A stretch of 35,369 nt of DNA. Source: Verrucomicrobiota bacterium (GTDB taxonomy: Bacteria > Verrucomicrobiota > Verrucomicrobiia > Chthoniobacterales > JACTMZ01). Both the position numbers and the translations under genes were made by a program. The stretch lies in assembly GCA_041177245.1 (NCBI GenBank), contig JBEDBL010000002.1, forward strand, positions 1 to 35,369, given 5' to 3'. The notes beneath the pieces were generated by a model, which did no database searches, was not told where the DNA came from, and saw only the letters and a list, made by a program, of their open reading frames with translations. Positions 19,819 to 35,369 of this stretch are shown here, piece after piece (within the stretch, counting starts at the first letter, position 1; every line of letters starts with the position of its first letter).

Positions 19819-20042
19819 GGTCGGGGCAGCGAGGAGCCTCCACGGAGACATGCCATCGCAATGGAGAAGGCTCGCTCCCAACAGAAAAAGTCGCCTTCGA
19901 ACGGGTGCCAAGACTTTCCGCGCGGATGCCGCGGGGCTGGCAACAAATCAGACTGGCGCTGCTCCCTTTAAGCTTGGCGCAAAAACGAAGGCTGGAGCGG
20001 GCGGCAAGAGCGCTACAGTCCAGAAGCGTCATTTTCCCACCG
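19819..20042. promoter_or_regulatory. Divergent intergenic region between the GPH transporter operon (minus) and the GH78-like gene (plus); promoters presumed
   Basis: A 224-nt gap if the ATG starts 19818 and 20043 are correct. It contains the 7-nt inverted repeat GAGCGAG (19827-19833) / CTCGCTC (19871-19877). No consensus promoter boxes were recognised. Confidence 0.3.
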
Positions 20043-24291: not shown

Positions 24292-24412
24292 CAGTGCGTC
24301 CTTTGTTTACCAGCCACAAGTCTCGACGAGAGGGCCAAGCGGCGGCAATCAGCATAACAAAAACAGTGGCTGCCGCGATGACTTCGGGCCACCAAAGCAC
24401 GGACAAATGGTC

Positions 24413-25597
24413 TCAGGCCAACGCGGCGGCAAGCTCCGGCTTGGCGCGGTCGCCACCAAAAACACCCGCGATCGCCTCAAGGTAGCCCATACCGTTGGCC
24501 GTATCGGGCTCGATATAGCTGCCTTCCGTCCATTCGTTCCATGCATTGATGCTCATGAGGTTCGGACCAGGACGCCGGCTGAGCCTCTCGCGGTAAATCT
24601 CGAGCGCGCGGCGGAAAGCAGCAGGGGTATTCCCGCCGATGCAATTGGAGAAAGTCGACTCCGGCAGCGGTTCCCAGATGTCGGACTGCAACGTGCGCGG
24701 CGAGTTGTCCCAACCCATGGTGATATTGGGGAAGTATGGGATGTCGTATTCCTCCTCCATGCGATTCCATGTCTGGAGATACTTGGCCAAGACTTCTTCG
24801 AACGGAGTAAAAGGCGTTTTGTCCAGTTCGGCGTGATGAATCCAGACGTAGCTCGTCACGCTGTCGAACCCGAGCGCCGCCACGAGTTGCGGAAGGTCCT
24901 TGATCACCACTTCCCCCGGCAGCACCGGCTTGCCCCAGGCAACCGCGTTGAAATGCAGGTTCGGAAAACCCGCCGCCCGCACCCGCTCGCGGAATTCGTC
25001 GATCGCCTCGCGCGTGGCCTTCACCGAACCGTGGATCTCCACGAACTTAGAAAGGTCGTAGACGGAAAAGTATGGCGAGCCATCGACCGTGAGGTAGGAA
25101 GAATGACTGAAATAGCGGTCGATAATGAGATCAGTGATAAAGCGGAACATGCGCGGCGAGACGAGCCCCGGATAAAGCGATTCCTTGCCGAAGGTTCTCC
25201 CCATCGGGTGGATATTGATCCAGTCGTGGTTGGCCCACATGAGAGAAAAGTCCAACCGGTCGACATTGCGCGCTTTGAGGAAACCCTGTTCCAGACAGCG
25301 CTCGAGGAAAGGTCCGTCCTCGTAGTGATACCAGTCGAAGATGAAGTGATCGATGCCGTGGTCGGCCGCCGCATCGATCTTCTTTTCCATGACGAGCGGA
25401 TCCGACTCGTCCTCGTGTCCCCAGACAGGCACTTTCGGCTGCTCGTGACCCGGGAAGCGAGGGCCGGCGTGCTTGACCAACTGCCACTCGGTCCATCCCG
25501 GTCCGTGCACCTTTTCGTTGCGCGGGTCGACATGGTAGTTGGGGAAATAATAACAACCCACGCGGATATCTTGGGAACGGTCGGCGATGCTCATCAT
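24413..25597 (-). CDS. Glycosyltransferase WbsX / GH99-like domain protein (cytoplasmic)
   Basis: I chose ATG 25597 (MMSIADRSQDIRVGCYYFPNYHVDPRNEKVHGPGWTEWQLV), which is the WbsX-family N-terminal signature (YYFPQ.H....N..WWG.GFTEW). The later block SINAWNEWTEGSYIEPD also fits. The longer track ORF, running up to 25777, overlaps the upstream gene. Confidence 0.8.
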   Translation of the reverse strand: MMSIADRSQDIRVGCYYFPNYHVDPRNEKVHGPGWTEWQLVKHAGPRFPGHEQPKVPVWGHEDESDPLVMEKKIDAAADHGIDHFIFDWYHYEDGPFLERCLEQGFLKARNVDRLDFSLMWANHDWINIHPMGRTFGKESLYPGLVSPRMFRFITDLIIDRYFSHSSYLTVDGSPYFSVYDLSKFVEIHGSVKATREAIDEFRERVRAAGFPNLHFNAVAWGKPVLPGEVVIKDLPQLVAALGFDSVTSYVWIHHAELDKTPFTPFEEVLAKYLQTWNRMEEEYDIPYFPNITMGWDNSPRTLQSDIWEPLPESTFSNCIGGNTPAAFRRALEIYRERLSRRPGPNLMSINAWNEWTEGSYIEPDTANGMGYLEAIAGVFGGDRAKPELAAALA

Positions 25598-25643
25598 CTT
25601 GGAAATAGAAATACGGGCGTCGGGCACTTCACCAGAATCGAAC

Positions 25644-27668
25644 TCAGGGCGCAGTGCTTCGGACGCGGTAGAAGTCTTTCCCCGAGGCCGGAACACGAAA
25701 CTCGCGCCGGATATAATCCGCCGGCAAGAGGAGACCGCTCTGGTTGGATGCGTTGGATATGGAAAGGCCTGTTGCAACCGTCCAAAAGTTGGTCAACGCG
25801 CTGTTTTTCTGCACCTCGTAAGTGGCACCATCGATGCGTTGGACCCAATTGAACACGGCGTTGGACCCCACCGCTGTCACCGTCATGAGCGCGGGCGTCC
25901 CGAGCGTCGGGTTCCCGTCGAAGGCGTATTCCACATCGTTGACAAAGCCGTCGCTGTCCGGATCGGCGGTGCCATTGGTGTCGAACAGACCCGCATTCGT
26001 GGTCCAGTAATCAGCCCAAGCCGAATAGCCGCCGACCGATGTCACGGTCACGGTGCTGCTGGCGGGAGTGAAGGAACCCTGCACACCGGAGAGGCCGGCG
26101 AAGACAACGCTACGGGTTCCCGTAAATGACCCACTGAAAAGCTGGTAAGTTGAACCGACCACGGGCGCGGGTGAGACCGACGACATGGTGATAGCCGCTG
26201 TGCCGACGTCCGCGGTAAAATTTGATTTCGCCACACGGAGAATTCCCCCATCCACCGAAGTGGCGCCCGTGTAGGAGTTGGAACCCGAAAGGATCAGCGT
26301 GCCATTGCCCGACTTGGTAAGACCAGTAGCTCCATCTATGCTTCCAGAGAAGGTTTCGCTGGCCGAAGCCTTGTTGACCGTCAGAGTTCCCGCCGCGTTG
26401 TAGAACTGGCCTGCGCCGGTCAAACCAGCGATGGTCAGATTATTGCTCGTTTTGTAAAAACCCGTCGCCGAGAAAGACGCTCCCGAGGCAATCTGAACCG
26501 CGCTCGCGCTGGAGATGGCGCCGGCACCGTCCAACCGCAACTGGCCAGCCTCGACCACCGTGGGACCGGTGTAGGTATTCGCACTCCAGAGTGAAGCATT
26601 CCCGGCGTTCGCCTTGGTCAGGGAACCCGCGCCGCTGACGACGTTGGTCATATCCGCGGTGATCACAAGGCTTGCATTGTTGGTGATGCTGCCGCCGATC
26701 GCACATCCCTCGGAAAGCATCAAGGCTCCGGCCGAAACGAGCGTGCCCCCGGCACATGAGTTGGACGAAGCGAGCACCAGAGTCCCCCCGCCCGCCTTGA
26801 GCAAACCGGCTGGCGCGCCGCCCAAAGATACGGAGTTGGTCACGCTCTGGCCGCTGGCGACATCGAAATTATAGCGGGCGACATCGAAGGTGATGAGGCC
26901 GAATGGCGCCACACTCTGCGTGCCGGCCAACTGCCAGACCGCAGCCGTGAAGTTCTCGCCGGCGAGCGCATCGATCTCGAACACGGCCATGTCCACGGTG
27001 CCGTTGCGCACCAACTGCGCGGAATAAACGGTTCCCGTGGATCCGGTGTAAATGCTCACATAATCCGGGGCATACGTTCCGTTCGCTGCAGTGTCGACCG
27101 TAATCCCGACACGGTAGGTGGCGGACATTCCCATAGTGAAGGCAAATGCCTCGCCGAAGTAGCCGTTGCCGTCACCCGACGGCGTGTTGTAGGGCCCCTG
27201 ATTGGCCGCAACCGAGAGCGATCCCTGTCGGTAGATGGTCGATCCGTCCGGACCCAGAAAAGTCGGATAACCACCGAAATTGACGAAGGTGCCAGCACCC
27301 CCGGTGACCGAACTCAACATCACAGGCGCGGAATACAGAGTCGGGTTGCCGGATGCGGAGATACCCAGATCGTTGCCTCCGGAAACACCCTCGCCAACAT
27401 TGCTGGGCGACGCAATGGGTGTGGGCCTGATCTGGTAGTAGCCGGCAGTTCCGTAAACTTCGCTACCGCCGAGATCGAAAGTTTTCGGCGCGGCAGGAGA
27501 CGACCAATTTTGCGGGGCGTACGCCGGGCCAATCCCCTCCTCGACTCCAAGGAACGCAATGCTGGCTGCGTCGACACTAAAGGCCGATCCGGCCAGCAAG
27601 ACAGCTGCAGCGCATGCTGGCAGGCAAGTCCATCGGGAGGAGGTTGATGTCATCTGAAGCGTCTTCAT
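25644..27668 (-). CDS. Surface/secreted protein: conserved N-terminal head domain + autotransporter-associated beta-strand (PATR) repeats + C-terminal DPDSDG (thrombospondin-type-3-like) segment; no PEP-CTERM
   Basis: ATG 27668 gives MKTLQMTSTSSRWTCLPACAAAVLLAGSAFSVDA|ASIAF; the track start 27827 is TTG. PATR units: GGGTLVLASSNSCAGGTLVSAGALML and GNGTLILSGSNSYTGATSVDGGILRV. C-terminus: TADPDSDGFVNDVEYAFDGNP...FYRVRSTAP. Confidence 0.85.
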   Translation of the reverse strand: MKTLQMTSTSSRWTCLPACAAAVLLAGSAFSVDAASIAFLGVEEGIGPAYAPQNWSSPAAPKTFDLGGSEVYGTAGYYQIRPTPIASPSNVGEGVSGGNDLGISASGNPTLYSAPVMLSSVTGGAGTFVNFGGYPTFLGPDGSTIYRQGSLSVAANQGPYNTPSGDGNGYFGEAFAFTMGMSATYRVGITVDTAANGTYAPDYVSIYTGSTGTVYSAQLVRNGTVDMAVFEIDALAGENFTAAVWQLAGTQSVAPFGLITFDVARYNFDVASGQSVTNSVSLGGAPAGLLKAGGGTLVLASSNSCAGGTLVSAGALMLSEGCAIGGSITNNASLVITADMTNVVSGAGSLTKANAGNASLWSANTYTGPTVVEAGQLRLDGAGAISSASAVQIASGASFSATGFYKTSNNLTIAGLTGAGQFYNAAGTLTVNKASASETFSGSIDGATGLTKSGNGTLILSGSNSYTGATSVDGGILRVAKSNFTADVGTAAITMSSVSPAPVVGSTYQLFSGSFTGTRSVVFAGLSGVQGSFTPASSTVTVTSVGGYSAWADYWTTNAGLFDTNGTADPDSDGFVNDVEYAFDGNPTLGTPALMTVTAVGSNAVFNWVQRIDGATYEVQKNSALTNFWTVATGLSISNASNQSGLLLPADYIRREFRVPASGKDFYRVRSTAP
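26232..26591 (-). repeat. ~120-aa PATR 'LW..N.YTG...LDG.G...LQ(V/I)ASGA.FS.TG...SNN.T.AGL.GAG' module, copy 1 of 5 (gene 25644-27668)
   Basis: Encodes LWSANTYTGPTVVEAGQLRLDGAGAISSASAVQIASGASFSATGFYKTSNNLTIAGLTGAGQFYNAAGTLTVNKASASETFSGSIDGATGLTKSGNGTLILSGSNSYTGATSVDGGILRV. Confidence 0.75.
26868..27566 (-). other. Conserved unassigned 'head' domain, copy in gene 25644-27668 (~233 aa)
   Basis: Runs from ASIAFLGVEEG...QNWSSP...VYGTAGYYQIRP...NPTLYSAPVMLSSVTGGAG...GPDGSTIY...GPYNTPSG..GYFGEAFAFTM...GTYAPDYVSIY...AVWQLAGTQS to FGLITFDVARYN. Confidence 0.7.
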
Positions 27669-27754
27669 AGGCTTTGGTCGGTTGGGAGAACGGCGAAGGT
27701 GGCGTGTTTCGACTGGAAAATTATTCCCGGCCCGAGAGTCTGCGTCCCGTCCCG

Positions 27755-27827
27755 GAAATTGCGCACGGGGATAATAGCTCGGTCCGCGCATTTCTGCGAC
27801 TCGAACGCACCCGAGCCAGAAATGCAA
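27755..27827 (-). promoter_or_regulatory. Three-copy GAAATGC-core repeat giving two mutually exclusive hairpins (or a multi-site operator) in the 309-nt leader upstream of gene 25644-27668
   Basis: On the plus strand, GCATTTCTG (27788-27796) is a perfect 9-nt inverted repeat of CAGAAATGC (27817-27825), with a 20-nt spacer. The overlapping GCGCATTTC (27786-27794) also pairs with GAAATTGCGC (27755-27764), leaving a one-base bulge. The middle copy cannot pair with both at once. Confidence 0.4.
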
Positions 27828-27977
27828 TTTATCGAGCGAGGGGGCAGAAAGTGTGATGCCGGCGAAATCACAGTCGGGAGGACATTAGGGATACAATACT
27901 TGAACTCTGCGGAACCGACCTTCAAGACCGCGCCAAAGACTCCCGAAACCGTGCCATGCCCGACGCGACCAAAGGTC

Positions 27978-30900
27978 TTATTTCCCGGGAGCGTGCTCAC
28001 CGGTCGCCTTGCGTCTGGAATGGCGCCAGCGGGCGCCAGCCGCGAGAAGGAGAAGCACAGCGCCCGAAGCAAAGGTACCCGGCTCCGGCACGGGCGCGCC
28101 GGCGCCAGTGTAGGTGAGGAACAAATCATTGTTCGCATCCACGGCCAGACTGAAAAGGCCGGAGGCTCCGACAAAACCACCCGTGCCGTTGTTTGCCGAA
28201 GTGTTGATATTGAACAGGTTCGTATTGAAGGCGCCGGAGATCCCCACAGAGGCGAGGATTTTCCAAGAGTAGTTTTGCGAGGCATCGAAACCCGTCGCAA
28301 CACCCGCCGTGTCGGGGAGGCCCGAGAGCGACCAGAGGTTGATGTTGAATTTGTTGCTCGTGCTCAGCCCGTTGATATCCCAAGTGCCGCCGGTCACGTT
28401 GATCAAATCCCACGTGTTGGTCTGCCCGGCTGTGCCGCTCACGTTGAAGATCTGCCAGTTGTAATTGCCGCCGCCCGACCAAGTGAGCCCGTTGGTGATG
28501 GTCAATGTGCCGGGAGAATTCCCCGGCGCGATCGTGCCGCCGTTTTGAACTGTCACCGATGCCACTGATCCGCTGCCACCGAGGCTGGCACCATTTTGCA
28601 CGGTAGTCGCACTGCTGATCGAGCCGTTGACAACCAAACTACCAGCGCTCACCGCAGTCGCACCGGTATAACTGTTGGCACCGGATAGCGTCCAGGTGCC
28701 CGCACCCGATTTCGTCACTGCCGTTCCTCCGCTGATCACGCCGGAAAACGTGTCGCTGCCCGAAGCCTTGTTGACGGCGAGCGTTCCAGCCGCATTGTAG
28801 ACATTCCCCGCACCACTCAGACCGGCGATTGTCAAATTGTTGCTGGTTTTAAAGAGACCCGTAGCCGAGAACGTAGCGCCAGAGGCGACTTGCAGCGTGC
28901 TGCTGCTGGAGATTTCACCCGCTCCGTCCAGTTGCAACTGGCCCGCCTCGACAACAGTGGCTCCGGTGTAGGTGTTGGGATTCCAAAGTGAAGCGGTGGA
29001 TCCGGTTGCTTTGGTCAATGAACCGCTACCGCTCACGACATTGGTCAAATCCGCGCCAATCCTCAGGCCGGCGTTATTCGTAATGCCGCCAGCGATGAAA
29101 CCGCCACTGCCCAATTCCAGGGTGCCAGCCGAGATGAGCGTGCCTCCGGTATATGAATTGCTCGCCGTGAGCGTGGTCGTGCCAGCGGACAACTTCGTCA
29201 CGCCACCGCTGCCCGAAATGCTGCCGCTATGCGTGTAGGCATCCGAGCGGTCGAAGACCAACTGCGCCGCGTTATCACTCAAAGCGGTGCTGCCCGAATA
29301 AGAACCTGTGGTCCCGCCATTACCGATACGCACCGTGCTGGTCGATACGGTGAGACCGCCTGTGCTGGTCACCGCTCCGGTTAAGCGCGTTTCACCCGAA
29401 CTGGAAACCAAGGCGCCAGCACCGGAGATGGAATTAGCCACCACGTTGGTTCCGCTCACCGCAAACTCAAGGGACCCGGAGCTTGCGTTCGAGATGGTAA
29501 TTGCGCCCGAACCCAGACGCCCATTGCCAGAGACACTGAGACGGCCCCCTTGAATATCGGTGGCGCCGCTGTAGCTATTGCTTGCCGTGAGGATTAGAGA
29601 ACCTGTTCCGGTCTTGGTCAGACCACCCGTGCCAAGACTGATCGCATCGTTCACCCGAATATGACCCGCGCCTTCGGTGCTGAGGTTGAAATTGGCCGAC
29701 TCGATCGCGTTTCCAGAAGCGACATCAAGCGTCAGCAAATTGTTTGCCGCCGCCCCGATCCGCGCATCAGCCGCCAGGGTGACCTTGCCTTGCCAGGTGT
29801 TCGTGCCGCTCGCGCTTCGCAAGGCCCCGCCGCTGCCGCCCACACCGAGTCCGCTGATGGTCAGTGCCTCGTCGCCGATCGTAATTCCGCTGCCGCCACC
29901 ATTGGTTCCCTGAATACGGATGACAGCGCCGTTCGCGACGGTCGTTCCGCTATCTGTGCTGCCAAACCCGTTACCACTCGCGAGGTTCACCACCCCGGCG
30001 TTGACTGTTGTCGCACCGGTGTAGCTGTTGCTGCCCGAAATGGAGAACTGACCGGCACCGCTCTTGGTAAGGCTGAGCCCTCCTTGAATGTTGCCGGTGA
30101 GAAGGTCGGTGCCAGAAGTTTTGTTCACCGTCAAGGTGCCCGCGGCCCCAGTCACCGTGCCCGCTCCGGCTAAGCCAGCCACGGTGACATTGTTGCTGGT
30201 GAGGAACGTTCCAGTCATCGAAAACGTGGCACCTGAGTCGACTTGCAAGGTCGTGCTGCTTGAAAGCGCTCCCGATCCGTCCAGTCTAAGCGCGCCACTG
30301 CTGACGACAGTCGCACCCGTGTAGCTATTGGAGCGCCAAAGAATCGATGTCCCAGTGCCTCCCGAAGTCAGACCTGCCGTTCCGGCCAACTCCGCCACAA
30401 TCTCGGCTGCGTTGCTGAGGACAAAACTTCCGCCCGTTTTCGAAAGCGACGCCGGCGCGCCGGCGCTGGTTGCAAGGTATCCGCCATCGAAGGTCACCGA
30501 GCCGGTGCGCGTCATGTTGGTGCGCACATCAAGGTAAGCTCCGCCGCTCACCGTGACCGCTGCGGACGCATCGCCCAGGGCATTGCTCGAAGTGGTGATG
30601 ACGCGTCCACCGGAGATGGTTGTTTCCCCGCTGTAGCTATTGCTGCCGCTCAAAGTCAGCGTGCCGTTGGCCGATTTGGCCAGCGCCCCATTACCGCTGA
30701 TCGCCCCGGACAAGGTCTGATTGGCCGAGGTGTTCACCCGCAAGGAGGCAGAGTTGGTCGTCAGCGATACCGCGCCGCTGTAGTTGCCGGAGGCCAACTG
30801 CCCGGATCCTCCCACTTCCACCGCACCATTGCTGATTGTTGTGGTCCCCTGATACGTGCTGACACCGGTCAAGGCCATGGTTCCCGCGCCCGTCTTGAGC

Positions 30901-31757
30901 AAACCGGCGGCAGAGCCGCCCAAAACCGACGAGTTCGTCTGCGCGCCCGACGCAACGGCAGCGTTGTAACTCGAAACATCGAAGGTGATGAGACCAAACG
31001 CCGCCGCGCTTTGCGTATTGGCCAGTTGCCACAAAGCCGCGGTGAAAGTGTCGCCGGCCGCAGCGGTCACATCAAAAACAGCCATGTCGGGCGTGCCGTC
31101 ACGCGTCAAAAGACTCGAGTAAACACTGCCCGTGCCCCCGTTGTAGATGGAAACATAATCCGGCGCGTAGGTTCCGCTCGCCACCGTGTCCACAGCCACG
31201 CCGATGCGGAAACTTGCTCCCATGCTCGAGCCCATGGTGAAAGAAAACGCCTCTCCGAAGTATCCGCTGTTGCTTCCCGAAGGTGTGTTGAAAGGCCCTT
31301 GATTGACAGGAACTGAAAGTCCGCCCTGTGTGTAGAGCGCAGATCCGTCGGGTCCTCGGAAGATGGAGTAGCTGTTGAAGTTGACATAGTCGCCTGCTCC
31401 GCCCGTGATTGAACTCAACATAACCGGAGCGGAATAGAGGGTCGGATTGGAACCCGCCGTGATGCCGAGGTTGTTCCCCGCGGCCGCACCCGAATAAATG
31501 GTGGAACCTGGCGGATAGGAGATCGGGCGGATCTGGTAGTAGCCCGCAGTTCCGTAGACGTCGCCGCTCAGATCGTAAGCCTTGGAAACACCGGGATTGG
31601 ACCAATTCTGCGTGGCGTATCCACTGCCTGCCGTTCCCGGTTCCACCCCGACGAACGAAATCGTGACCGCTTCGGCAGTCGAAATCGCTGCCCAGACCGC
31701 GACCAAATGCAAAGTGGAGCGCGCAGCGGCAACCATACTGGATCTTGGGGGGATCAT
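27978..31757 (-). CDS. Giant PEP-CTERM-anchored surface protein: conserved head domain + long PATR beta-strand repeat stalk
   Basis: 1259 aa with an ATG start and the signal peptide MIPPRSSMVAAARSTLHLVAVWAAISTAEA|V. Many G.G.L.LSG.NSY(T/S)G.T.(V/I)..G.L units. The C-terminal GAPVPEPGTFASGAVLLLLAAGARWRHSRRK is a canonical PEP-CTERM sorting signal (about 27981-28093). Confidence 0.9.
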   Translation of the reverse strand: MIPPRSSMVAAARSTLHLVAVWAAISTAEAVTISFVGVEPGTAGSGYATQNWSNPGVSKAYDLSGDVYGTAGYYQIRPISYPPGSTIYSGAAAGNNLGITAGSNPTLYSAPVMLSSITGGAGDYVNFNSYSIFRGPDGSALYTQGGLSVPVNQGPFNTPSGSNSGYFGEAFSFTMGSSMGASFRIGVAVDTVASGTYAPDYVSIYNGGTGSVYSSLLTRDGTPDMAVFDVTAAAGDTFTAALWQLANTQSAAAFGLITFDVSSYNAAVASGAQTNSSVLGGSAAGLLKTGAGTMALTGVSTYQGTTTISNGAVEVGGSGQLASGNYSGAVSLTTNSASLRVNTSANQTLSGAISGNGALAKSANGTLTLSGSNSYSGETTISGGRVITTSSNALGDASAAVTVSGGAYLDVRTNMTRTGSVTFDGGYLATSAGAPASLSKTGGSFVLSNAAEIVAELAGTAGLTSGGTGTSILWRSNSYTGATVVSSGALRLDGSGALSSSTTLQVDSGATFSMTGTFLTSNNVTVAGLAGAGTVTGAAGTLTVNKTSGTDLLTGNIQGGLSLTKSGAGQFSISGSNSYTGATTVNAGVVNLASGNGFGSTDSGTTVANGAVIRIQGTNGGGSGITIGDEALTISGLGVGGSGGALRSASGTNTWQGKVTLAADARIGAAANNLLTLDVASGNAIESANFNLSTEGAGHIRVNDAISLGTGGLTKTGTGSLILTASNSYSGATDIQGGRLSVSGNGRLGSGAITISNASSGSLEFAVSGTNVVANSISGAGALVSSSGETRLTGAVTSTGGLTVSTSTVRIGNGGTTGSYSGSTALSDNAAQLVFDRSDAYTHSGSISGSGGVTKLSAGTTTLTASNSYTGGTLISAGTLELGSGGFIAGGITNNAGLRIGADLTNVVSGSGSLTKATGSTASLWNPNTYTGATVVEAGQLQLDGAGEISSSSTLQVASGATFSATGLFKTSNNLTIAGLSGAGNVYNAAGTLAVNKASGSDTFSGVISGGTAVTKSGAGTWTLSGANSYTGATAVSAGSLVVNGSISSATTVQNGASLGGSGSVASVTVQNGGTIAPGNSPGTLTITNGLTWSGGGNYNWQIFNVSGTAGQTNTWDLINVTGGTWDINGLSTSNKFNINLWSLSGLPDTAGVATGFDASQNYSWKILASVGISGAFNTNLFNINTSANNGTGGFVGASGLFSLAVDANNDLFLTYTGAGAPVPEPGTFASGAVLLLLAAGARWRHSRRKATGEHAPGK
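28623..28988 (-). repeat. PATR module, copy 2 of 5 (distal copy in gene 27978-31757)
   Basis: Encodes LWNPNTYTGATVVEAGQLQLDGAGEISSSSTLQVASGATFSATGLFKTSNNLTIAGLSGAGNVYNAAGTLAVNKASGSDTFSGVISGGTAVTKSGAGTWTLSGANSYTGATAVSAGSLVVNG. By eye this is the copy closest to copy 1. Confidence 0.75.
29982..30341 (-). repeat. PATR module, copy 3 of 5 (proximal copy in gene 27978-31757)
   Basis: Encodes LWRSNSYTGATVVSSGALRLDGSGALSSSTTLQVDSGATFSMTGTFLTSNNVTVAGLAGAGTVTGAAGTLTVNKTSGTDLLTGNIQGGLSLTKSGAGQFSISGSNSYTGATTVNAGVVNL. Confidence 0.75.
30963..31667 (-). other. Conserved unassigned 'head' domain, copy in gene 27978-31757 (~235 aa)
   Basis: VTISFVGVEPG...QNWSNP...VYGTAGYYQIRP...NPTLYSAPVMLSSITGGAG...GPDGSALY...GPFNTPSG..GYFGEAFSFTM...GTYAPDYVSIY...ALWQLANTQS...FGLITFDVSSYN. 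Confidence 0.7.
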
Positions 31758-31783
31758 GGCTTGGGGAAACCTACGCTTTAAGA

Positions 31784-34700
31784 CTACATCGTGCGGCCGG
31801 CCTGGACCTTCGCCAGCGCGCCATAAGTCCGTGATGCAGTGCCAGCCCGGCAGGCGGACAACAGCAGAAGTCCAAGCACTGCCGCGGCGGCGGCTGAAGT
31901 CGATGACTCAGGGATCGCCGTGATGGTGAAGGTGCTCCCGTTGAAGGTGGAACCTCCGAAACCGCCGGCGCCGCTGAAGGTGAAACCCGAGAGGGAAAGG
32001 CTGTTCGTTGTCTGGAAAATCAGGGTGTTCCCCTGGGTGAAATTGGCCAAGTCGAGCACAAGCAGCGCGCTCGGAGTGTAACCGATTCCGCCGAACTCGA
32101 TTGTCCCGGCCGTTCCCCCGCCGAAGTCGAGGAATGAAGACGCTGTGAGATTGAGGTTGCCGAAGACTTCGCTCACACCGCTGGCACGTTGGATCGTCCC
32201 GCCCGAGAGCGTAACGCCCGCGCCGTTGTTCACTTGGTTGCTTTGCGAGATGAGAAGTATCGCGTTTGTCGCCACGGACACCGACGCGGCCGAAGCTGCC
32301 GCGCCACCGACAGAACTGTTGAGATTCAAAACGCCTGCATCGACGGCGACAGCCCCCGTGTAGGTGTTGTTGCCCGTGACCACGAGAGTTCCTGTCCCTT
32401 GCTTCGTGATTCCCCCGCTGCCACCGAGGTTACCGGATTCCGTAGTCGCTGTGCCGGCATCCACCGTGTAAGTCGCGTTGTTGAGCGTCTTGTTCCCGCT
32501 CAGTGTCACCGTTTGGAGTGTGCGAATGTTATAGATACTCATCGCGTTGGCCACCGTGCCCGACGCATTGATCTGTAGTGTCGATGAAGAGTTGCTCTGC
32601 GTGATCATGCCGCTGCCCGCCGCACTCGCGTTGTCCAACCTCAAGAACCCCTCGCCCAGAACCGTTCCGCCGCTGTAGCTGTTGGCAGCGCCTAGGATCA
32701 GCGATCCGGTGCCGAGTTTGGTCAGACCTCCCGCGCCCAAGCTGATCGCATCGTTGACTTGGATATGGCCCGCTCCCTCGGTGGTAAAGTTGAAGTCCGC
32801 CGACTCGACCGCGTTCCCAGACGCGACATCCAATGTCAAAAAGCTGCTGGCCGCAGATCCAATCCGCGCATCGCCGGACAAGGTGACTTTCCCTTGCCAG
32901 GTGTTTGTTCCGGAAACGCTGCGCAAAGCCCCGCCGTTGCCGGCACGGCCTTGGCCGATGATGGTCAAAGCCTCCGCGCCGACGGTGATGCCGCTGCCGC
33001 CATTGTTCGTGCCCTGAATACGCAAGACGGAACCGTTCCCCACAATTGTGCCGGCCGCCGTGCTGCCCAAGCTGCTGGCGTGAACAAGATTAAGAACATT
33101 GTCCGACCCTCCGACCGTGGTGATCCCCGTGTAGTTGTTGCTCCCAGCGAGCCACAATTGGGTGTAGTCGGCCAGAGTGAGTCCGATGCCGCCCTGGATA
33201 CTTCCGGTAAAAACATCCGAACTCGTCGTGGGCTTGCTGACCGTCAGCGTCCCCGCCGCTCCCGTGACTGTGCCCGCGCCAGTCAAACCGGACACCGTGA
33301 CATTATTGCTCGGCGCAAAAAATCCGGTGGTGGAAAATGTAGCACCGGAAGCCACTTGAAGTGCGCTGTTGCTCGAGATCATACCCGCGCCATCCAACCG
33401 CACCACACCGCCCTCCACCACGGTGGCACCGGAGTAGCTGTTGGCCACCCAGATGGAAATAGTGGAACTGCCACTTTTGGTCAGTGAACCGGTTCCGCTC
33501 ACCGCATTGACCAAATCTCCGCGGATAATGAGGCTGGCGTTGTTGGTGATGCCGCCGCTGAGCACTGCACCGTTGAGATCGAGCGCACCCGCCGAGATGA
33601 GCGTTCCGCCCGAGTAGGAGTTCGAGCCCGACAAGACCAGTGTCCCCGCCCCCGCCTTGTTAAGGCGAACGCCCCCGGTGATTTGACCGGAAAACGTGTC
33701 GCTGCCGGAGGCCTTGTCCACGCTGAATGAACCCGCACCCCCGGTCACCGTCCCCGCTCCCGTCAGCCCGGCGACGGTCAAATTGTTGCTGGTGAGGAAA
33801 GTGCCGGTTGACGAGAAGGTCGCGCCTGAAGCGACTTGCAGCGTGGTGTTGGTCGAGAGACCGCCCGAACCGTCCAACCTCAGCGTGCCGCTGTTGACCA
33901 CGGTTGCCCCCGTGTAGCTGTTCGAGCGCCAAAGAATCGCGACGCCCGTGCCACCCGAGGTCAGGCCAGCCGAACCGCCCAACTGTGCGACGATTTCCGC
34001 GGCGTTGGTGAGCACAAAGCTTCCGCCGTTGTTGATCAGCGAAGCCGGTGCGCCGTCGGCAGTCGCCAGATATCCCCCGTCGAAGGTTACCGTCCCAGTG
34101 CGCGTGATGTTCGTGCGCACATCGAGGTAAGCGCCACCGCTGACTGTGACCGCCGAGGATGCGTCACCCAATGCGTTCGCAGAAGTCGCGATGAGGCGCC
34201 CCCCCGAAATGGTCGTGCCCCCGCTGTAGCTGTTACTACCACTCAAAGTCAGTGTGCCATTAACAGATTTGGACAAAGAACCGCTGCCGCTGATCGCGCC
34301 GGACAAAATCTGGTTGGCCGAGGTTGCGATGCGGAGCGAGGCCGTGTTGGTGGCGAGCGATACCGCGCCGGTATAGCTGCCGCCGGCCAACCGGCCCGCG
34401 CCGCCTACCTCGACCGCGCCATTGCTGATCGTCGTGGTGCCTTGATATGTGCTGACACCCGTTAGCACCGTTGTTCCCGCTCCGGTCTTGAGCAGCGCCG
34501 CCGGTGCGCCACCGAGAACCGCAGAATTGGTCTGCAGACCGGAGACGACATCCAAATTGTAACGCGACACATCGAAGGTAATCAGACCAAAAGCCGCGGC
34601 GCTCTGCGTCCCGGCCAACTGCCACAAAGCCGCGCTGAAACTTTCGCCCGCGGACGCAGTGAGGTCGAAGAAAACCATGTCTGGCGTGCCGTCACGCGTC

Positions 34701-35353
34701 AGTTGCGTGGAATAGGTGCTTCCGGTGCCCGAGTTGTAAATGGTGACATAGTCAGGCGCATAGGTGCCGCTGGATACGGTGTCGACCGCGATGCCGATAC
34801 GGAAATTCGCACCCATATTCGACGCCATACTGAAAGAGAAAGCTTCGCCAAAGTATCCGTTGTTGCTGCCCGAGGGCGTGTTGTAAGGACCGTTGTTGAC
34901 CGCGACCGAGAGCGATCCTTCGCGATAGAGCGCAGATCCGTCCGGACCGCGGAAGATCGGATAGCCTGGGAAATTGACATAATCGCCGGCGCCGCCGGTG
35001 ATCGAACTCAAGAACACCGGAGCAGAATACAAGGTCGGGGAATTGGTTGCGGTGATGCCGAGATTATTTCCCGAAGATGCTCCTTGGTAGATGTTGACTG
35101 CGCCGGGGTCCCAAGCCATCGGACGGATCTGGTAGTAACCCGAAGTTCCGTAGACCTCGCTGCCGCCCAAATCGTAGGTTTTGGAAACGCCCAGATTGGA
35201 CCAGTTTTGCACCGCGTAACCGCTTCCCGCCGTGCCGACTTCGACCCCGACAAAAGAAACCGTCGCGGCCTCGGCGGAGGAAAATGCAAGCCAGGCAGCG
35301 GCGATGAGCAAAGAAAATGTTGTCGGGACAGGAGATCCTAATTTTGTGGGCAT
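31784..35353 (-). CDS. Giant surface protein paralogous to 27978-31757: conserved head domain + PATR repeats + variant PEP-CTERM-like tail
   Basis: 1189 aa with an ATG start and the signal peptide MPTKLGSPVPTTFSLLIAAAWLAFSSAEA|A. It is colinear with the neighbouring paralog over the first ~550 aa. The C-terminus AIPESSTSAAAAAVLGLLLLSACRAGTASRTYGALAKVQAGRTM (about 31787-31920) has IPES in place of VPEP and a weak basic cluster. Confidence 0.9.
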   Translation of the reverse strand: MPTKLGSPVPTTFSLLIAAAWLAFSSAEAATVSFVGVEVGTAGSGYAVQNWSNLGVSKTYDLGGSEVYGTSGYYQIRPMAWDPGAVNIYQGASSGNNLGITATNSPTLYSAPVFLSSITGGAGDYVNFPGYPIFRGPDGSALYREGSLSVAVNNGPYNTPSGSNNGYFGEAFSFSMASNMGANFRIGIAVDTVSSGTYAPDYVTIYNSGTGSTYSTQLTRDGTPDMVFFDLTASAGESFSAALWQLAGTQSAAAFGLITFDVSRYNLDVVSGLQTNSAVLGGAPAALLKTGAGTTVLTGVSTYQGTTTISNGAVEVGGAGRLAGGSYTGAVSLATNTASLRIATSANQILSGAISGSGSLSKSVNGTLTLSGSNSYSGGTTISGGRLIATSANALGDASSAVTVSGGAYLDVRTNITRTGTVTFDGGYLATADGAPASLINNGGSFVLTNAAEIVAQLGGSAGLTSGGTGVAILWRSNSYTGATVVNSGTLRLDGSGGLSTNTTLQVASGATFSSTGTFLTSNNLTVAGLTGAGTVTGGAGSFSVDKASGSDTFSGQITGGVRLNKAGAGTLVLSGSNSYSGGTLISAGALDLNGAVLSGGITNNASLIIRGDLVNAVSGTGSLTKSGSSTISIWVANSYSGATVVEGGVVRLDGAGMISSNSALQVASGATFSTTGFFAPSNNVTVSGLTGAGTVTGAAGTLTVSKPTTSSDVFTGSIQGGIGLTLADYTQLWLAGSNNYTGITTVGGSDNVLNLVHASSLGSTAAGTIVGNGSVLRIQGTNNGGSGITVGAEALTIIGQGRAGNGGALRSVSGTNTWQGKVTLSGDARIGSAASSFLTLDVASGNAVESADFNFTTEGAGHIQVNDAISLGAGGLTKLGTGSLILGAANSYSGGTVLGEGFLRLDNASAAGSGMITQSNSSSTLQINASGTVANAMSIYNIRTLQTVTLSGNKTLNNATYTVDAGTATTESGNLGGSGGITKQGTGTLVVTGNNTYTGAVAVDAGVLNLNSSVGGAAASAASVSVATNAILLISQSNQVNNGAGVTLSGGTIQRASGVSEVFGNLNLTASSFLDFGGGTAGTIEFGGIGYTPSALLVLDLANFTQGNTLIFQTTNSLSLSGFTFSGAGGFGGSTFNGSTFTITAIPESSTSAAAAAVLGLLLLSACRAGTASRTYGALAKVQAGRTM
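33108..33454 (-). repeat. PATR module, copy 4 of 5 (distal copy in gene 31784-35353)
   Basis: Encodes IWVANSYSGATVVEGGVVRLDGAGMISSNSALQVASGATFSTTGFFAPSNNVTVSGLTGAGTVTGAAGTLTVSKPTTSSDVFTGSIQGGIGLTLADYTQLWLAGSNNYTGITTVGG. Confidence 0.7.
33571..33934 (-). repeat. PATR module, copy 5 of 5 (proximal copy in gene 31784-35353)
   Basis: Encodes LWRSNSYTGATVVNSGTLRLDGSGGLSTNTTLQVASGATFSSTGTFLTSNNLTVAGLTGAGTVTGGAGSFSVDKASGSDTFSGQITGGVRLNKAGAGTLVLSGSNSYSGGTLISAGALDLNG. Confidence 0.75.
34556..35266 (-). other. Conserved unassigned 'head' domain, copy in gene 31784-35353 (~237 aa)
   Basis: ATVSFVGVEVG...QNWSNL...VYGTSGYYQIRP...SPTLYSAPVFLSSITGGAG...GPDGSALY...GPYNTPSG..GYFGEAFSFSM...GTYAPDYVTIY...ALWQLAGTQS...FGLITFDVSRYN. 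Confidence 0.7.
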
Positions 35354-35369
35354 GGATGGGGATAATTAC

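What the first reader, a model, noticed from the sequence alone, without database searches (positions are those of the whole stretch)
34556..35266. Unassigned ~235-aa head domain conserved in all three paralogs (also at 30963-31667 and 26868-27566)
Conservation among the three paralogs is highest in the segment directly after each signal peptide, not in the repeats. Shared blocks are (I/V)(A/S)F(L/V)GVE, QNWS, VYGT(A/S)GYYQIRP, PTLYSAPV(M/F)LSS(V/I)TGGAG, GPDGS..Y, GP(Y/F)NTPSG...GYFGEAF.F(T/S)M, GTYAPDYV(S/T)IY, A(A/V)(L/V)WQLA.TQS and FGLITFDV. I cannot place this combination in any family I know. It has no PATR periodicity and no obvious catalytic signature. A domain at the tip of a beta-helical stalk is the natural candidate for the functional (ligand-binding or enzymatic) part.
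Basis: seen in the sequence. Interest (0 to 1): 0.68.

Follow-up and report, generated by a model that had tools for sequence, protein, structure and literature searches.

The report
Unnamed sugar-binding-like head module
The ~235-residue "head" on three neighbouring surface proteins is a real, folded, so-far unnamed beta-sandwich module that leads a conserved sugar-degrading gene cluster of freshwater Verrucomicrobiota. It is also built into one of that cluster's enzymes and is carried by phages, so it is most likely a new carbohydrate-binding module, but its function is untested.

Summary
**Observation:** confirmed. Three tandem minus-strand genes (A 31784-35353, B 27978-31757, C 25644-27668) each encode a signal peptide, a ~232-aa head (62-78% identical) and a PATR beta-helix stalk.

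**No named family:** the head matches nothing in Pfam, NCBIfam, PHROGs or PDB sequences. AlphaFold gives a confident all-beta fold (pLDDT 90.5). Foldseek finds only weak similarity to CBM35/6/4-type sandwiches (TM <= 0.49).

- The usual form is a stand-alone ~280-aa protein, head plus PEP-CTERM anchor.
- Wherever a bacterial locus has enough flank, the head gene(s) lie with one conserved cluster: WbsX-like, GH99-like, GH116 or sulfatase, GH78-like, MFS transporter, GH43/32-like.
- That cluster's GH43/32-like enzyme carries a homologous N-terminal module (hhalign 99.5%, E 2e-22). This is the architecture expected of a CBM.
- Phages carry the module too, as PEP-CTERM surface-protein cassettes and as signal-less genes just after tail-fibre-like genes.

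**Best reading (~0.55):** a glycan-binding module displayed on the cell surface to capture the cluster's substrate.

**Rivals:** a lectin for a bacterial surface glycan, an enzyme, or a structural cap.

**Verdict:** candidate new CBM-like family. No binding has been tested.

The parts
31784..35353 (-). Paralog A, 1189 aa: signal peptide, head, long PATR beta-helix stalk, degenerate PEP-CTERM-like tail (IPESS + hydrophobic stretch + R)
   Evidence: ORF and translation. PATR PF12951 E 1.4e-36 with 7 repeats, and no other Pfam family, so no autotransporter barrel. The tail has no PF07589 hit.
35267..35353 (-). Signal peptide of A (aa 1-29, ...AFSSAEA|ATVSF)
   Evidence: Read from the sequence: hydrophobic core plus an AxA site. 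Inference only; no predictor was run.
34556..35266 (-). Head module of A (the finding). Domain proper is aa 30-262 = nt 34568-35266.
   Evidence: Alignment. AlphaFold2 pLDDT 90.5, pTM 0.90, 17 beta strands. No family hit.
31787..31915 (-). C-terminal tail of A: IPESS + hydrophobic helix + basic residues (degenerate PEP-CTERM-like)
   Evidence: Sequence. No Pfam PEP-CTERM hit.
27978..31757 (-). Paralog B, 1259 aa: signal peptide, head, PATR stalk, PEP-CTERM-like tail
   Evidence: PATR E 1.9e-42 with 8 repeats.
30963..31667 (-). Head module of B (aa 31-261 = nt 30975-31667)
   Evidence: 73-78% identical to the head of A. A and B are sisters in the NJ tree.
27981..28091 (-). PEP-CTERM-like tail of B (VPEPGTFASGAVLLLLAAGARWRHSRRK...)
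   Evidence: The motif is visible in the sequence. PF07589 scores only 13 bits, E 0.11, below the 20.7-bit cut-off.
25644..27668 (-). Paralog C, 674 aa from the ATG at 27668: signal peptide, head, short PATR stalk, and a different C-terminal domain (DPDSDG..., ending FYRVRSTAP) with no PEP-CTERM
   Evidence: PATR E 4.2e-26 with 3 repeats. Tail scan.
26868..27566 (-). Head module of C (aa 35-263 = nt 26880-27566)
   Evidence: 62-65% identical to the head of A. Groups with the L003 copies in the tree.
17705..18307 (-). Divergent homologue of the head: the N-terminal ~200-aa module of the cluster's GH43/32-like enzyme
   Evidence: BLASTP against head A: E 5e-7. Orthologue P0189 hit by the head profile at E 3e-14 in 1.84 billion proteins. 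hhalign A2 vs A5: probability 99.5%, E 2.1e-22, 190 columns. The AF2 model is all-beta at pLDDT ~90.
16817..18472 (-). GH43/32-like five-bladed beta-propeller glycoside hydrolase carrying that module
   Evidence: Pfam GH43, GH32N, GH130. Foldseek PDB: GH32, GH159, GH117, GH43 at E ~1e-12, TMt 0.53-0.76.
24413..25597 (-). WbsX-like (PF14307) gene directly downstream of the head genes. Probable start is MMSIADRS at 25597, with no signal peptide.
   Evidence: Pfam E 1.5e-51. Follows the head gene directly, or after one small pilin-like gene (L008, L009), in L004-L006, L008, L009, L012, L014, L015, L017 and L019-L023; further downstream in L007. Start position.
22414..24291 (-). Secreted GH99-like protein of the cluster
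   Evidence: Pfam GH99, sub-threshold at E 1.7e-5. 71-82% identical orthologues in the same position.
19803..22400 (+). GH78-like alpha-L-rhamnosidase six-hairpin protein of the cluster
   Evidence: PF17389 E 6e-15. PDB rhamnosidases 2okx and 3cih. Synteny.
18388..19911 (-). MFS_2 sugar transporter of the cluster
   Evidence: PF13347 E 2e-65. Synteny.
10527..13802 (-). GH116-family glycosidase of the cluster
   Evidence: PF12215 and PF04685. 71-79% identical orthologues next to head genes.
4706..7018 (-). Sulfatase with an N-terminal beta-helix domain. The sulfatase part is a cluster member elsewhere.
   Evidence: PF00884 E 5e-44 and PF13229. Orthologues in L007, L019 and L020.

Best explanation
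**What it is.** The head is an autonomous ~232-residue beta-sandwich module of an undescribed family. It most likely binds a specific glycan without cleaving it, so it would act as a CBM or lectin-like module.

**How it is deployed.**
- In its commonest form it is exported by a signal peptide and tethered to the cell envelope by a PEP-CTERM (exosortase) tail that follows the last strand (...TFDV-IPEPS...) with no linker.
- In this window the same module sits at the N-terminal, distal end of PATR beta-helix stalks, in three old paralogous copies. This should hold it roughly 10-15 nm from the surface.

**Proposed role.** The head genes open a conserved glycan-degradation and import cluster: WbsX-like, GH99-like, GH116 or sulfatase, GH78-like rhamnosidase, MFS_2 transporter and GH43/32-like, with an AraC regulator upstream in relatives. 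The head would capture the cluster's polysaccharide substrate at the surface. A diverged copy fused to the GH43/32-like enzyme would target that enzyme to the same glycan. This is comparable to SusE/F-type surface glycan-binding proteins and enzyme-borne CBMs in Bacteroidota PULs.

**Shown:** the domain boundaries, the fold class, the absence of any family match, the architectures, the synteny, homology with the GH-borne module, and the phage copies.

**Inferred:** carbohydrate binding, surface exposure through the tail or stalk, the identity of the ligand (unknown; the cluster suggests a rhamnose/fucose-containing, possibly sulfated glycan), and the capture role.
For: - **Independent fold.** AF2 gives pLDDT 90.5 and pTM 0.90, all-beta. 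108 of the 120 best homologues are signal peptide + head + PEP-CTERM with nothing else. PF07589 passes its cut-off on P0003 and hits 29 of 44 alignment members.
- **Fold neighbours are mostly carbohydrate-binding modules.** The only recurring Foldseek neighbours are CBM35, CBM6, CBM4, CBM36, CBM51 and PA14, with Foldseek probability 0.97-1.0 for the CBM35/CBM4 hits but E only ~1e-3. In BFVD the neighbours are tail fibres and a CenC-like CBM.
- **CBM-type architecture.** The head profile hits the N-terminus of GH43/32-like enzyme P0189 at E 3e-14. The window's own orthologue is homologous: BLASTP E 5e-7, and hhalign gives 99.5%, E 2.1e-22 over head residues 3-232. At least 100 orthologue clusters keep the module. 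The catalytic part is a GH32/43/117/159-like propeller.
- **Synteny.** Every bacterial locus with enough flank has the head gene(s) next to cluster genes (L003-L009, L012, L014-L023). Cluster enzymes are 68-88% identical across Chthoniobacterales, Verrucomicrobiaceae, Akkermansiaceae and Methylacidiphilales MAGs.
- **Other fusions are adhesin-like.** These include tandem heads, Ig-like/cadherin, LRR, PA14+TSP3 and PATR.
- **Phage copies.** Signal-less copies sit directly after tail-fibre-like genes and before holin/endolysin genes (L033, L034, L036, L037/L038). That is where receptor-binding tip proteins are usually encoded.
- **Invariant residues.** They are rich in aromatic and polar residues (W22, Y39, Y44, Y102, W215, K29, Q46, N67, N98, R156, D162, D232), with no invariant Glu or His.
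Against: - No binding experiment exists, and no ligand can be named.
- Structural similarity to CBMs is weak: TM 0.49 or less, below the usual same-fold threshold. At ~232 aa the module is nearly twice the size of CBM6/35 and closer to beta-jelly-roll enzymes.
- Synteny and fusion to a GH would also fit an auxiliary enzyme.
- Phage tail-associated proteins can be depolymerases, or chaperones encoded after fibre genes.
- PEP-CTERM tails on the window's own proteins are sub-threshold (B), degenerate (A) or absent (C), so their anchoring is uncertain.
- CAZy/dbCAN CBM models and the AlphaFold DB could not be searched.
Confidence: 0.55

Rival explanations
1. The head binds a glycan, but the ligand is a bacterial cell-surface polymer (the cell's own or a neighbour's EPS, capsule or LPS-type glycan), not a nutrient. 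The proteins would then organise or anchor the cell's matrix, or mediate cell-cell adhesion. Phages would use the same specificity to adsorb (tail-associated copies) or to coat and mask the infected cell's receptor glycan (PEP-CTERM copies).
For: - Phage copies next to tail-fibre-like genes imply a ligand exposed on a bacterial host.
- AT-rich phages encode cassettes of signal-peptide + PEP-CTERM proteins including the head.
- The head co-occurs with WbsX-like genes even in divergent contexts. In L024 these lie with RgpF, GT2 and STELLO glycosyltransferases; in L010 and L011 a WbsX-like gene is the neighbour. WbsX is named after an O-antigen cluster gene.
- From general knowledge, PEP-CTERM proteins are associated with EPS production and floc formation.
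Against: - In bacteria the head is linked to degradative enzymes, a sugar importer and sugar catabolism genes, not to polymerisation or export genes.
- A homologous module sits on a secreted hydrolase.
- Genes upstream of the AraC regulator differ between loci (EPS export in L019, T2SS in L021), so EPS genes are not part of the conserved unit.
Confidence: 0.2
2. The head is a small beta-jelly-roll enzyme (glycoside hydrolase, polysaccharide lyase or esterase) that makes the first extracellular cut in the substrate. In phages it would act as a tail-borne depolymerase.
For: - Its size (~232 aa) is typical of jelly-roll enzymes such as GH16, GH11 and PL7 (general knowledge).
- It is strongly conserved: 44-62% identity to the phage copies and to the bacterial copies in other orders, 63-76% to the PATR-fused copies in L001-L003 and L007, with many invariant polar residues.
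- It is the first gene of a degradative cluster.
- Phage tail proteins are often depolymerases.
Against: - There is no invariant Glu or His, and only two invariant Asp, both inside core strands (VD(T/S) and TFD).
- No GH16, GH11 or PL family appears among the 50 best Foldseek PDB hits, whereas CBMs recur.
- There is no Pfam or NCBIfam enzyme hit.
- The GH-fused copies have lost most conserved loop motifs yet persist in at least 100 orthologue clusters, as expected for a targeting module.
- Tandem duplication and fusion to LRR, cadherin and PA14 repeats are typical of binders.
Confidence: 0.13
3. The head has no ligand. It is a structural unit: a capping or folding nucleus for the PATR beta-helix, or a bulk surface-coat protein delivered by the exosortase system.
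For: - It sits at the N-terminal end of the stalks.
- Stand-alone copies are very abundant in lake metagenomes: 422 hits among 90% clusters.
Against: - Most copies have no stalk to cap.
- It is not a beta-helix.
- It is fused to unrelated partners, including a hydrolase, a trypsin-like protease and LRRs.
- Identity of about 60% between 30%-GC phage genomes and 60%-GC bacteria points to selection on a specific interaction.
- Its fixed position in a catabolic cluster is hard to explain for a generic coat protein.
Confidence: 0.05

Closest known systems
CBM35 / CBM6 / CBM4 / CBM36-type beta-sandwich carbohydrate-binding modules (e.g. PDB 2w87, 2w46, 1k42, 1uxz)
   Same: All-beta sandwich. These are the recurring best Foldseek neighbours, with probability 0.97-1.0 for the CBM35/CBM4 hits. 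A homologous copy is appended to a glycoside-hydrolase catalytic domain. Invariant positions are rich in aromatic and polar residues.
   Different: No sequence or profile similarity at all. TM is only 0.28-0.34 by query and 0.43-0.49 by target. The module is ~232 aa against ~130 aa. It is mostly a stand-alone PEP-CTERM protein rather than an enzyme appendage. Binding is untested.
SusE/SusF-type surface glycan-binding proteins of Bacteroidota polysaccharide-utilisation loci (functional analogy, from general knowledge)
   Same: Non-catalytic, surface-tethered beta-sandwich proteins encoded inside a co-regulated glycan-degradation and import cluster, often in several copies.
   Different: Different phylum. 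Tethered by PEP-CTERM or a PATR stalk instead of a lipid anchor. No SusC/D pair; the cluster has an MFS_2 transporter instead. No sequence relation.
PEP-CTERM / exosortase substrates (PF07589, TIGR02595)
   Same: Stand-alone homologues end in IPEP + hydrophobic helix + RRRR. P0003 scores 25.6 bits against the 20.7-bit cut-off, and 29 of 44 alignment members hit PF07589.
   Different: PEP-CTERM defines only the sorting tail, not the head. The window's own proteins have a sub-threshold (B), degenerate (A) or absent (C) tail.
PATR-containing passenger domains of type V autotransporter adhesins (PF12951, e.g. ShdA)
   Same: The stalks of A, B and C are PATR beta-helix repeats, with a functional module at the end of the stalk.
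   Different: No autotransporter beta-barrel domain was detected. The head itself has no PATR signal and occurs without any stalk.
Phage tail-fibre tip adhesins encoded just downstream of the fibre gene (e.g. T4 gp38; positional analogy, from general knowledge)
   Same: Signal-less head homologues start at or overlap the stop of a tail-fibre-like gene and precede holin/endolysin genes in L033, L034, L036 and L037.
   Different: No sequence or fold relation to gp38 was tested or is claimed. Virion association is not shown. A tail-fibre assembly chaperone role is not excluded.

Membership tests
CBM6 / CBM35 (CAZy; Pfam PF03422, PF16990) | Significant sequence or profile similarity to family members | tested here: not met
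   No Pfam hit on any of the three heads at E <= 10, and none on the 44 homologues. PDB sequence profiles A1 and A2 give 0 hits at E <= 10.
CBM6 / CBM35 (CAZy; Pfam PF03422, PF16990) | Same beta-sandwich (jelly-roll) fold of ~130 residues | tested here: inconclusive
   Foldseek hits 2w87, 2w46 and 2w3j: E 2.5e-3 to 4e-3, probability ~1.0, but TMq 0.28-0.31 and TMt 0.43-0.49, for a query of 237 aa.
Carbohydrate-binding module in the general CAZy sense | A discretely folding module found within a carbohydrate-active enzyme | tested here: met
   A homologous module sits at the N-terminus of the GH43/32-like enzyme (hhalign 99.5%, E 2.1e-22). It is predicted as a separate all-beta unit ahead of a GH32/43/117-like propeller and is kept in at least 100 orthologue clusters.
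Carbohydrate-binding module in the general CAZy sense | Demonstrated carbohydrate-binding activity | not testable with these tools
   Needs recombinant protein and glycan-binding assays.
Carbohydrate-binding module in the general CAZy sense | Not already covered by an existing CAZy CBM family (dbCAN models) | not testable with these tools
   dbCAN/CAZy HMMs are not among the libraries. Only Pfam, NCBIfam, PHROGs and PDB were searched.
PATR repeat (PF12951 / TIGR02601) | Match to the ~30-residue repeat profile | tested here: not met
   The heads alone give no hit. The PATR hits reported for the full-length proteins lie in the stalks, with best repeats at aa 564-592 (A), 1014-1043 (B) and 450-479 (C).
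Type V autotransporter | C-terminal beta-barrel translocator domain | tested here: not met
   Pfam scan of full-length A, B and C at E <= 1 returns only PATR. The NCBIfam autotransporter equivalogs score far below their cut-offs, and the best-matched stretches reported are repeat-containing regions.
PEP-CTERM exosortase substrate (PF07589) | C-terminal PEP motif + transmembrane helix + basic cluster scoring above the gathering cut-off (20.7 bits) | tested here: inconclusive
   Stand-alone homologue P0003: 25.6 bits, met. Phage L027 copy: 20.2 bits. Window B: 13 bits, E 0.11. Window A: no hit (IPESS variant). Window C: no such tail.
PEP-CTERM exosortase substrate (PF07589) | An exosortase (EpsH/XrtA-type) gene in the same genome | not testable with these tools
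   The window does not contain one, and the rest of the genome is not available.
Phage receptor-binding or tail-fibre tip protein | Encoded in the tail module of a phage genome and lacking export signals | tested here: met
   This applies to relatives, not to the window proteins. L033 9956-10669 and L034 9953-10702 overlap the stop of tail-fibre-like genes (PHROG tail hits down to E 7.7e-10 for L034 8307-9956; weak for L033). L036 follows a PF24243 Phage_tail_C gene. L037 and L038 precede holin and endolysin genes.
Phage receptor-binding or tail-fibre tip protein | Presence in the virion and binding to the host receptor | not testable with these tools
   Needs virion proteomics or cryo-EM and adsorption assays. 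No cultured phage in INPHARED carries the module.

The most novel reading that the evidence does not exclude
The head is a highly specific lectin for one particular surface or extracellular glycan, and it is traded between PVC bacteria and their phages. Bacteria would display it, on PEP-CTERM tails or PATR stalks, as the recognition unit of a dedicated and widely shared degradation cluster. Some phages would mount it next to their tail fibres as the receptor-binding tip. Other AT-rich phages would express signal-peptide + PEP-CTERM copies, together with PATR proteins, that the host's own exosortase pathway places on the infected cell. That could mask the receptor glycan (superinfection exclusion, or avoiding adsorption to debris) or boost substrate capture. 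If so, these would be phage-encoded exosortase substrates, and the family would be a new CBM family that defines a PUL-like system outside Bacteroidota.
Probability: 0.22. Interest if true: 0.78.

Novelty: new variant of a known kind. Interest (0 to 1): 0.56.

Why it matters
- **A handle on PVC glycan recognition.** Verrucomicrobiota and Planctomycetota are major degraders of complex, often sulfated and methyl-pentose-rich polysaccharides. They lack the SusC/D and SGBP machinery that explains substrate recognition in Bacteroidota.
- **A testable starting point.** This unnamed module leads a strongly conserved degradative cluster (cluster enzymes 68-88% identical across orders), is re-used on one of the cluster's enzymes, and is displayed on stalks or PEP-CTERM tails. 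It can be expressed on its own (~232 aa with a confident model), so ligand screening could identify both a new CBM family and the unknown substrate of the cluster.
- **The phage link.** Phage copies may connect glycan recognition, phage adsorption and phage-driven remodelling of the host surface. They may also be useful markers for phages of these hard-to-culture bacteria.

Tried and rejected
- **Known-family assignment.** These searches found nothing on the head:
  - Pfam on the full proteins, the isolated heads and all 44 homologues.
  - NCBIfam and PHROGs.
  - PDB sequence searches with one three-sequence and one 44-sequence profile, and with the GH N-module profile (noise only at E 1.7).
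- **Structure search.** Foldseek against PDB and BFVD gave only weak, generic beta-sandwich hits. I do not treat these as family membership. AlphaFold DB was not available.
- **'Divergent PATR cap'.** Rejected because the head is not a beta-helix and mostly occurs without a stalk.
- **Classical autotransporter.** Rejected because no barrel domain was found.
- **Other small secreted proteins tested for relatedness to the head.** The window's 213-aa protein (9800-10441) and the phage 235-aa PEP-CTERM protein showed no relation.
- **Substrate clues from the neighbours.** The WbsX-like and GH99-like proteins have no solved relatives by sequence. Only the GH78-like protein matches rhamnosidases.
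- **Literature.** Searches for WbsX/PF14307, PEP-CTERM with Verrucomicrobia, CBMs or phages, and GH116/GH78/GH99 in freshwater Verrucomicrobia found no description of this module or cluster.
- **Promoter and terminator scan of 24000-35369.** Counts were at chance level and uninformative.
- **Cultured phages.** INPHARED gave no match.
- **A misleading intermediate result.** The first hhalign of the head profile against the single GH43/32 sequence gave probability 3.9%. The relation became clear only with profiles on both sides.
- **Pocket mapping.** Mapping conserved residues onto the model was not possible because model coordinates are not exposed.

Full report
**1. What is in the window**

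The last 10 kb of the window holds three tandem genes on the minus strand:
- A: 31784-35353, 1189 aa.
- B: 27978-31757, 1259 aa.
- C: 25644-27668, 674 aa if the ATG at 27668 is used.

Each begins with a plausible signal peptide (read from the sequence). A ~232-residue segment follows, and then a stalk of PATR repeats: PF12951/TIGR02601 with 7, 8 and 3 reported repeats. No autotransporter barrel or any other Pfam family was found.

The C-termini differ:
- B ends in a PEP-CTERM-like tail (VPEP + hydrophobic stretch + RHSRRK). It scores only 13 bits, below the Pfam cut-off.
- A ends in a degenerate version (IPESS...).
- C ends in an unrelated domain.

**2.

B is 73-78% and C is 62-65% identical to A over the head.

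One nuance applies. Between A and B, stalk residues 250-550 are 76-84% identical, at least as conserved as the head. Only comparisons with C single out the head. At the DNA level the copies are 61-75% identical, so the duplications are old.

**3. No known family**

- Pfam, NCBIfam and PHROGs give nothing on the head, even at permissive thresholds and across 44 homologues.
- PDB sequence searches with profiles give nothing.
- Every database homologue that carries a name is called 'hypothetical protein'.
- Literature searches found no description.

**4. Fold**

With a 44-sequence alignment, AlphaFold2 gives a confident all-beta model: pLDDT 90.5, pTM 0.90, 17 strands.

Foldseek against the PDB finds a single match at E <= 1e-3. 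TM-scores are 0.34 or less by query and 0.49 or less by target. The recurring neighbours are CBM35, CBM6, CBM4, CBM36, CBM51, PA14, a gingipain adhesin domain and BclA/C1q-type heads. Against predicted viral structures, the equally weak neighbours are tail fibres, minor tail proteins and a CenC-like CBM.

So the head is a beta-sandwich that loosely resembles carbohydrate-binding modules, is about twice their size, and has no close structural relative in these libraries. It is not a beta-helix cap.

**5. The usual form is a small PEP-CTERM protein**

A search of 5.8 billion proteins returned 422 homologues. Of the best 120, 108 are ~275-290-aa proteins made only of a signal peptide, the head and a tail. 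The tail...TFD(V/A)-IPEPS-hydrophobic-RRRR, begins right after the last strand. P0003's tail passes the PF07589 cut-off, and 29 of 44 alignment members hit that family.

An exhaustive profile search of 1.84 billion representatives found 284 clusters at E <= 1e-3, of which 49 are at E <= 1e-30. The architectures seen are:
- stand-alone;
- N-terminal to PATR stalks;
- tandem heads;
- heads joined to Ig-like/cadherin, LRR, PA14+TSP3 or trypsin-like domains;
- internal to a 2537-aa protein.

**6. Taxonomy**

In one-genome-per-species contigs, the module occurs in MAGs labelled as follows:
- Chthoniobacterales, Verrucomicrobiaceae, Luteolibacter, Prosthecobacter, Akkermansiaceae and Methylacidiphilales;
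- a few Planctomycetota;
- three labelled Lentisphaeraceae, Akkermansia sp. and Bacteroides sp.

Several come from lake sampling series (Lake Mendota bins, Loclat).

The closest locus is L001, a Chthoniobacterales MAG. It has four consecutive head genes, two with stalks, and a stalk 86.5% identical to A's. The window therefore probably comes from a related freshwater verrucomicrobium. This is an inference.

**7. Conserved genomic context**

Wherever enough flank is available, the head gene(s) sit next to cluster genes. In most loci a WbsX-like gene (PF14307) follows directly, or after one small pilin-like gene in L008 and L009. Then come a secreted GH99-like protein, GH116 and/or a sulfatase, a GH78-like rhamnosidase, an MFS_2 transporter and a GH43/32-like enzyme. 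In L019-L023 an AraC-type regulator lies upstream.

The window has the same order:

| Gene | Coordinates |
|---|---|
| Heads | 25644-35353 |
| WbsX-like | 24413-25597 |
| GH99-like | 22414-24291 |
| GH78-like | 19803-22400 |
| MFS_2 | 18388-19911 |
| GH43/32-like | 16817-18472 |
| GH116 | 10527-13802 |
| DUF6786 | 8510-9763 |
| MFS transporter (read by eye as fucose-permease-like; not scanned) | 7034-8506 |
| Sulfatase | 4706-7018 |

Cluster enzymes are 68-88% identical across orders, and the heads are 50-76% identical. Two to four tandem head genes are common: L001 has 4, L014 has 3 and L021 has 2.

In a neighbour-joining tree, the PATR-fused heads (window A, B, C, L001-L003, L007) form one clade, with A and B as sisters.

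**8. The module is also part of an enzyme**

- The head profile hit GH43/32-like enzyme P0189 at E 3e-14 over its N-terminal 200 residues.
- The window's own orthologue aligns to head A at BLASTP E 5e-7.
- Some orthologues (P0391, P0397, P0404, P0393) keep nearly the whole motif set: FVGVE, RWS, GGSGHYVLAP, WVNFPGY, FRLG.MVDAF..APD(Y/F)(I/V)S, LTRD..PDLVLFDI and FSLITFDRL.
- Profile-profile comparison gives 99.5% probability, E 2.1e-22, over head residues 3-232. A first attempt with a six-sequence profile gave 96%.
- At least 100 full-length orthologue clusters keep the module.
- AlphaFold2 of the whole enzyme (pLDDT 91.3) shows an all-beta N-module followed by a five-bladed propeller. The propeller matches GH32, GH159, GH117 and GH43 structures at E ~1e-12 with TMt 0.53-0.76.

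This satisfies the architectural half of the CAZy definition of a CBM.

**9. Phage copies (unexpected)**

Seven IMG/VR contigs carry the module, and further phage-like contigs were found through protein look-ups. There are two kinds.

(a) AT-rich contigs of 28-34% GC.
- They have a terminase (E 4e-24) and a virion structural protein (phrog_1645, E 8e-93).
- They carry a cassette of signal-peptide + PEP-CTERM proteins: a ~240-aa unknown, the head (60-62% identical to the window's) and a 542-669-aa PATR protein. L024 adds a pilin-like protein.
- Of the 120 best database clusters, 78 are nearest to this clade. That assignment is by nearest reference only.
- In the tree the clade is nested beside the Verrucomicrobiaceae stand-alone heads.
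- Only the head is closely related to the window's proteins; the other cassette members are not.

(b) Signal-less, tail-less copies of 237-265 aa. Several start with MS..INPY.
- Their start overlaps or abuts the stop of a tail-fibre-like gene. PHROG tail-family hits reach E 7.7e-10 for L034. L036 has a PF24243 Phage_tail_C gene.
- Holin and endolysin genes follow (L033, L034, L036, L037/L038).
- This is where tip adhesins, or fibre chaperones, are usually encoded.

No cultured phage in INPHARED has the module.

**10. Conserved residues**

Thirty positions are invariant across bacterial stand-alone, PATR-fused and both phage types. They include W22, Y39, Y44, Y102, W215, K29, Q46, N67, N98, R156, D162, S186 and D232. 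There is no invariant Glu or His. This fits a binding face better than a hydrolase or lyase centre, but it is not decisive without coordinates.

**11. Interpretation**

The best-supported reading, at about 0.55, is a glycan-binding module displayed at the cell surface to capture the substrate of the adjacent cluster. A diverged copy would target the GH43/32-like enzyme to the same glycan. Stalk fusion and triplication in this genome would add reach and avidity, or diversify specificity.

The rivals are:
- the same binding activity directed at a bacterial surface polymer, for matrix, adhesion or a phage receptor (0.2);
- a small jelly-roll enzyme (0.13);
- a ligand-less structural unit (0.05).

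The ligand is unknown.

**12. Verdict**

This is a genuine, well-delimited, uncharacterised domain family. It is most likely a new CBM-like module, with unusual deployments: a PEP-CTERM tail, a PATR stalk, a GH appendage and phage genes. I classify it as a new variant of a known kind and score interest at about 0.56. Interest would be higher if the phage-host glycan-recognition link is borne out.

Noticed in passing
window 4706-25777 (and loci L003-L023): A roughly 10-gene glycan-utilisation cluster is conserved in order across several orders of Verrucomicrobiota, with enzymes 68-88% identical at protein level. It comprises WbsX-like, GH99-like, GH78-like, MFS_2, GH43/32-like, pilin-like, GH116, a 213-aa unknown, DUF6786 and a sulfatase. 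Its substrate is unknown, and the WbsX-like and GH99-like members have no solved relatives by sequence.
   Followed up: partly
L024, L025/L035, L027-L030, L032 (phage contigs, 28-34% GC): Phage genomes carry cassettes of two to four proteins, each with a signal peptide and a PEP-CTERM-like tail: a ~240-aa unknown, the head, a PATR protein and a 265-aa unknown. These would be phage-encoded candidates for the host exosortase pathway. I found no literature on this.
   Followed up: partly
L033 9956-10669; L034 9953-10702; L036 439-1236; L037 8001-8750: Head homologues without a signal peptide or PEP-CTERM tail lie directly after tail-fibre-like genes and before holin/endolysin genes. Several share the N-terminus MS..INPY. 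They are candidate receptor-binding tip proteins.
   Followed up: partly
window 25644-26020 (C-terminus of paralog C): Paralog C lacks a PEP-CTERM tail. It ends in a DPDSDG (TSP3-like) segment plus a ~100-aa domain finishing ...DFYRVRSTAP. Similar endings (FFRLK.., FYRIQTP, FLRLKASLAQ) occur in other head-bearing proteins (P0133, P0159, P0140, P0104). This may be an alternative C-terminal sorting or anchoring domain, and it has no Pfam hit.
   Followed up: no
window 9800-10441 (-): A 213-aa secreted protein with no Pfam family is conserved (51-55% identity) next to GH116 in L003 and L014-L018. It is not detectably related to the head.
   Followed up: partly
window 4706-7018 (-): The sulfatase carries an N-terminal right-handed beta-helix domain (PF13229/NosD-like) after a membrane anchor. 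Orthologues in L007, L019 and L020 match only the sulfatase part.
   Followed up: no
window 13762-14511 (-); also L007-L009, L012, L017: A prepilin-type N-terminal methylation protein (PF07963, of the type abundant in Verrucomicrobiota and Planctomycetota) is a recurrent member of the cluster, in some loci directly after the head gene. A distant pilin-like gene also follows the head-PATR pair in phage contig L024.
   Followed up: no
window 24413-25777 vs 25644-27668: The longest WbsX-like ORF (start 25777) would overlap the end of paralog C by 134 nt. Homologues of 392-393 aa and the sequence itself suggest the real start is MMSIADRS at 25597, which gives a cytoplasmic protein without a signal peptide.
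   Followed up: partly
L010, L011, L013 (67-68% GC, labelled Planctomycetota): Head genes in Planctomycetota-labelled MAGs are not in the verrucomicrobial cluster. In L010 and L011 they still have a divergent (26% identity) WbsX-like gene as neighbour on the opposite strand.
   Followed up: no
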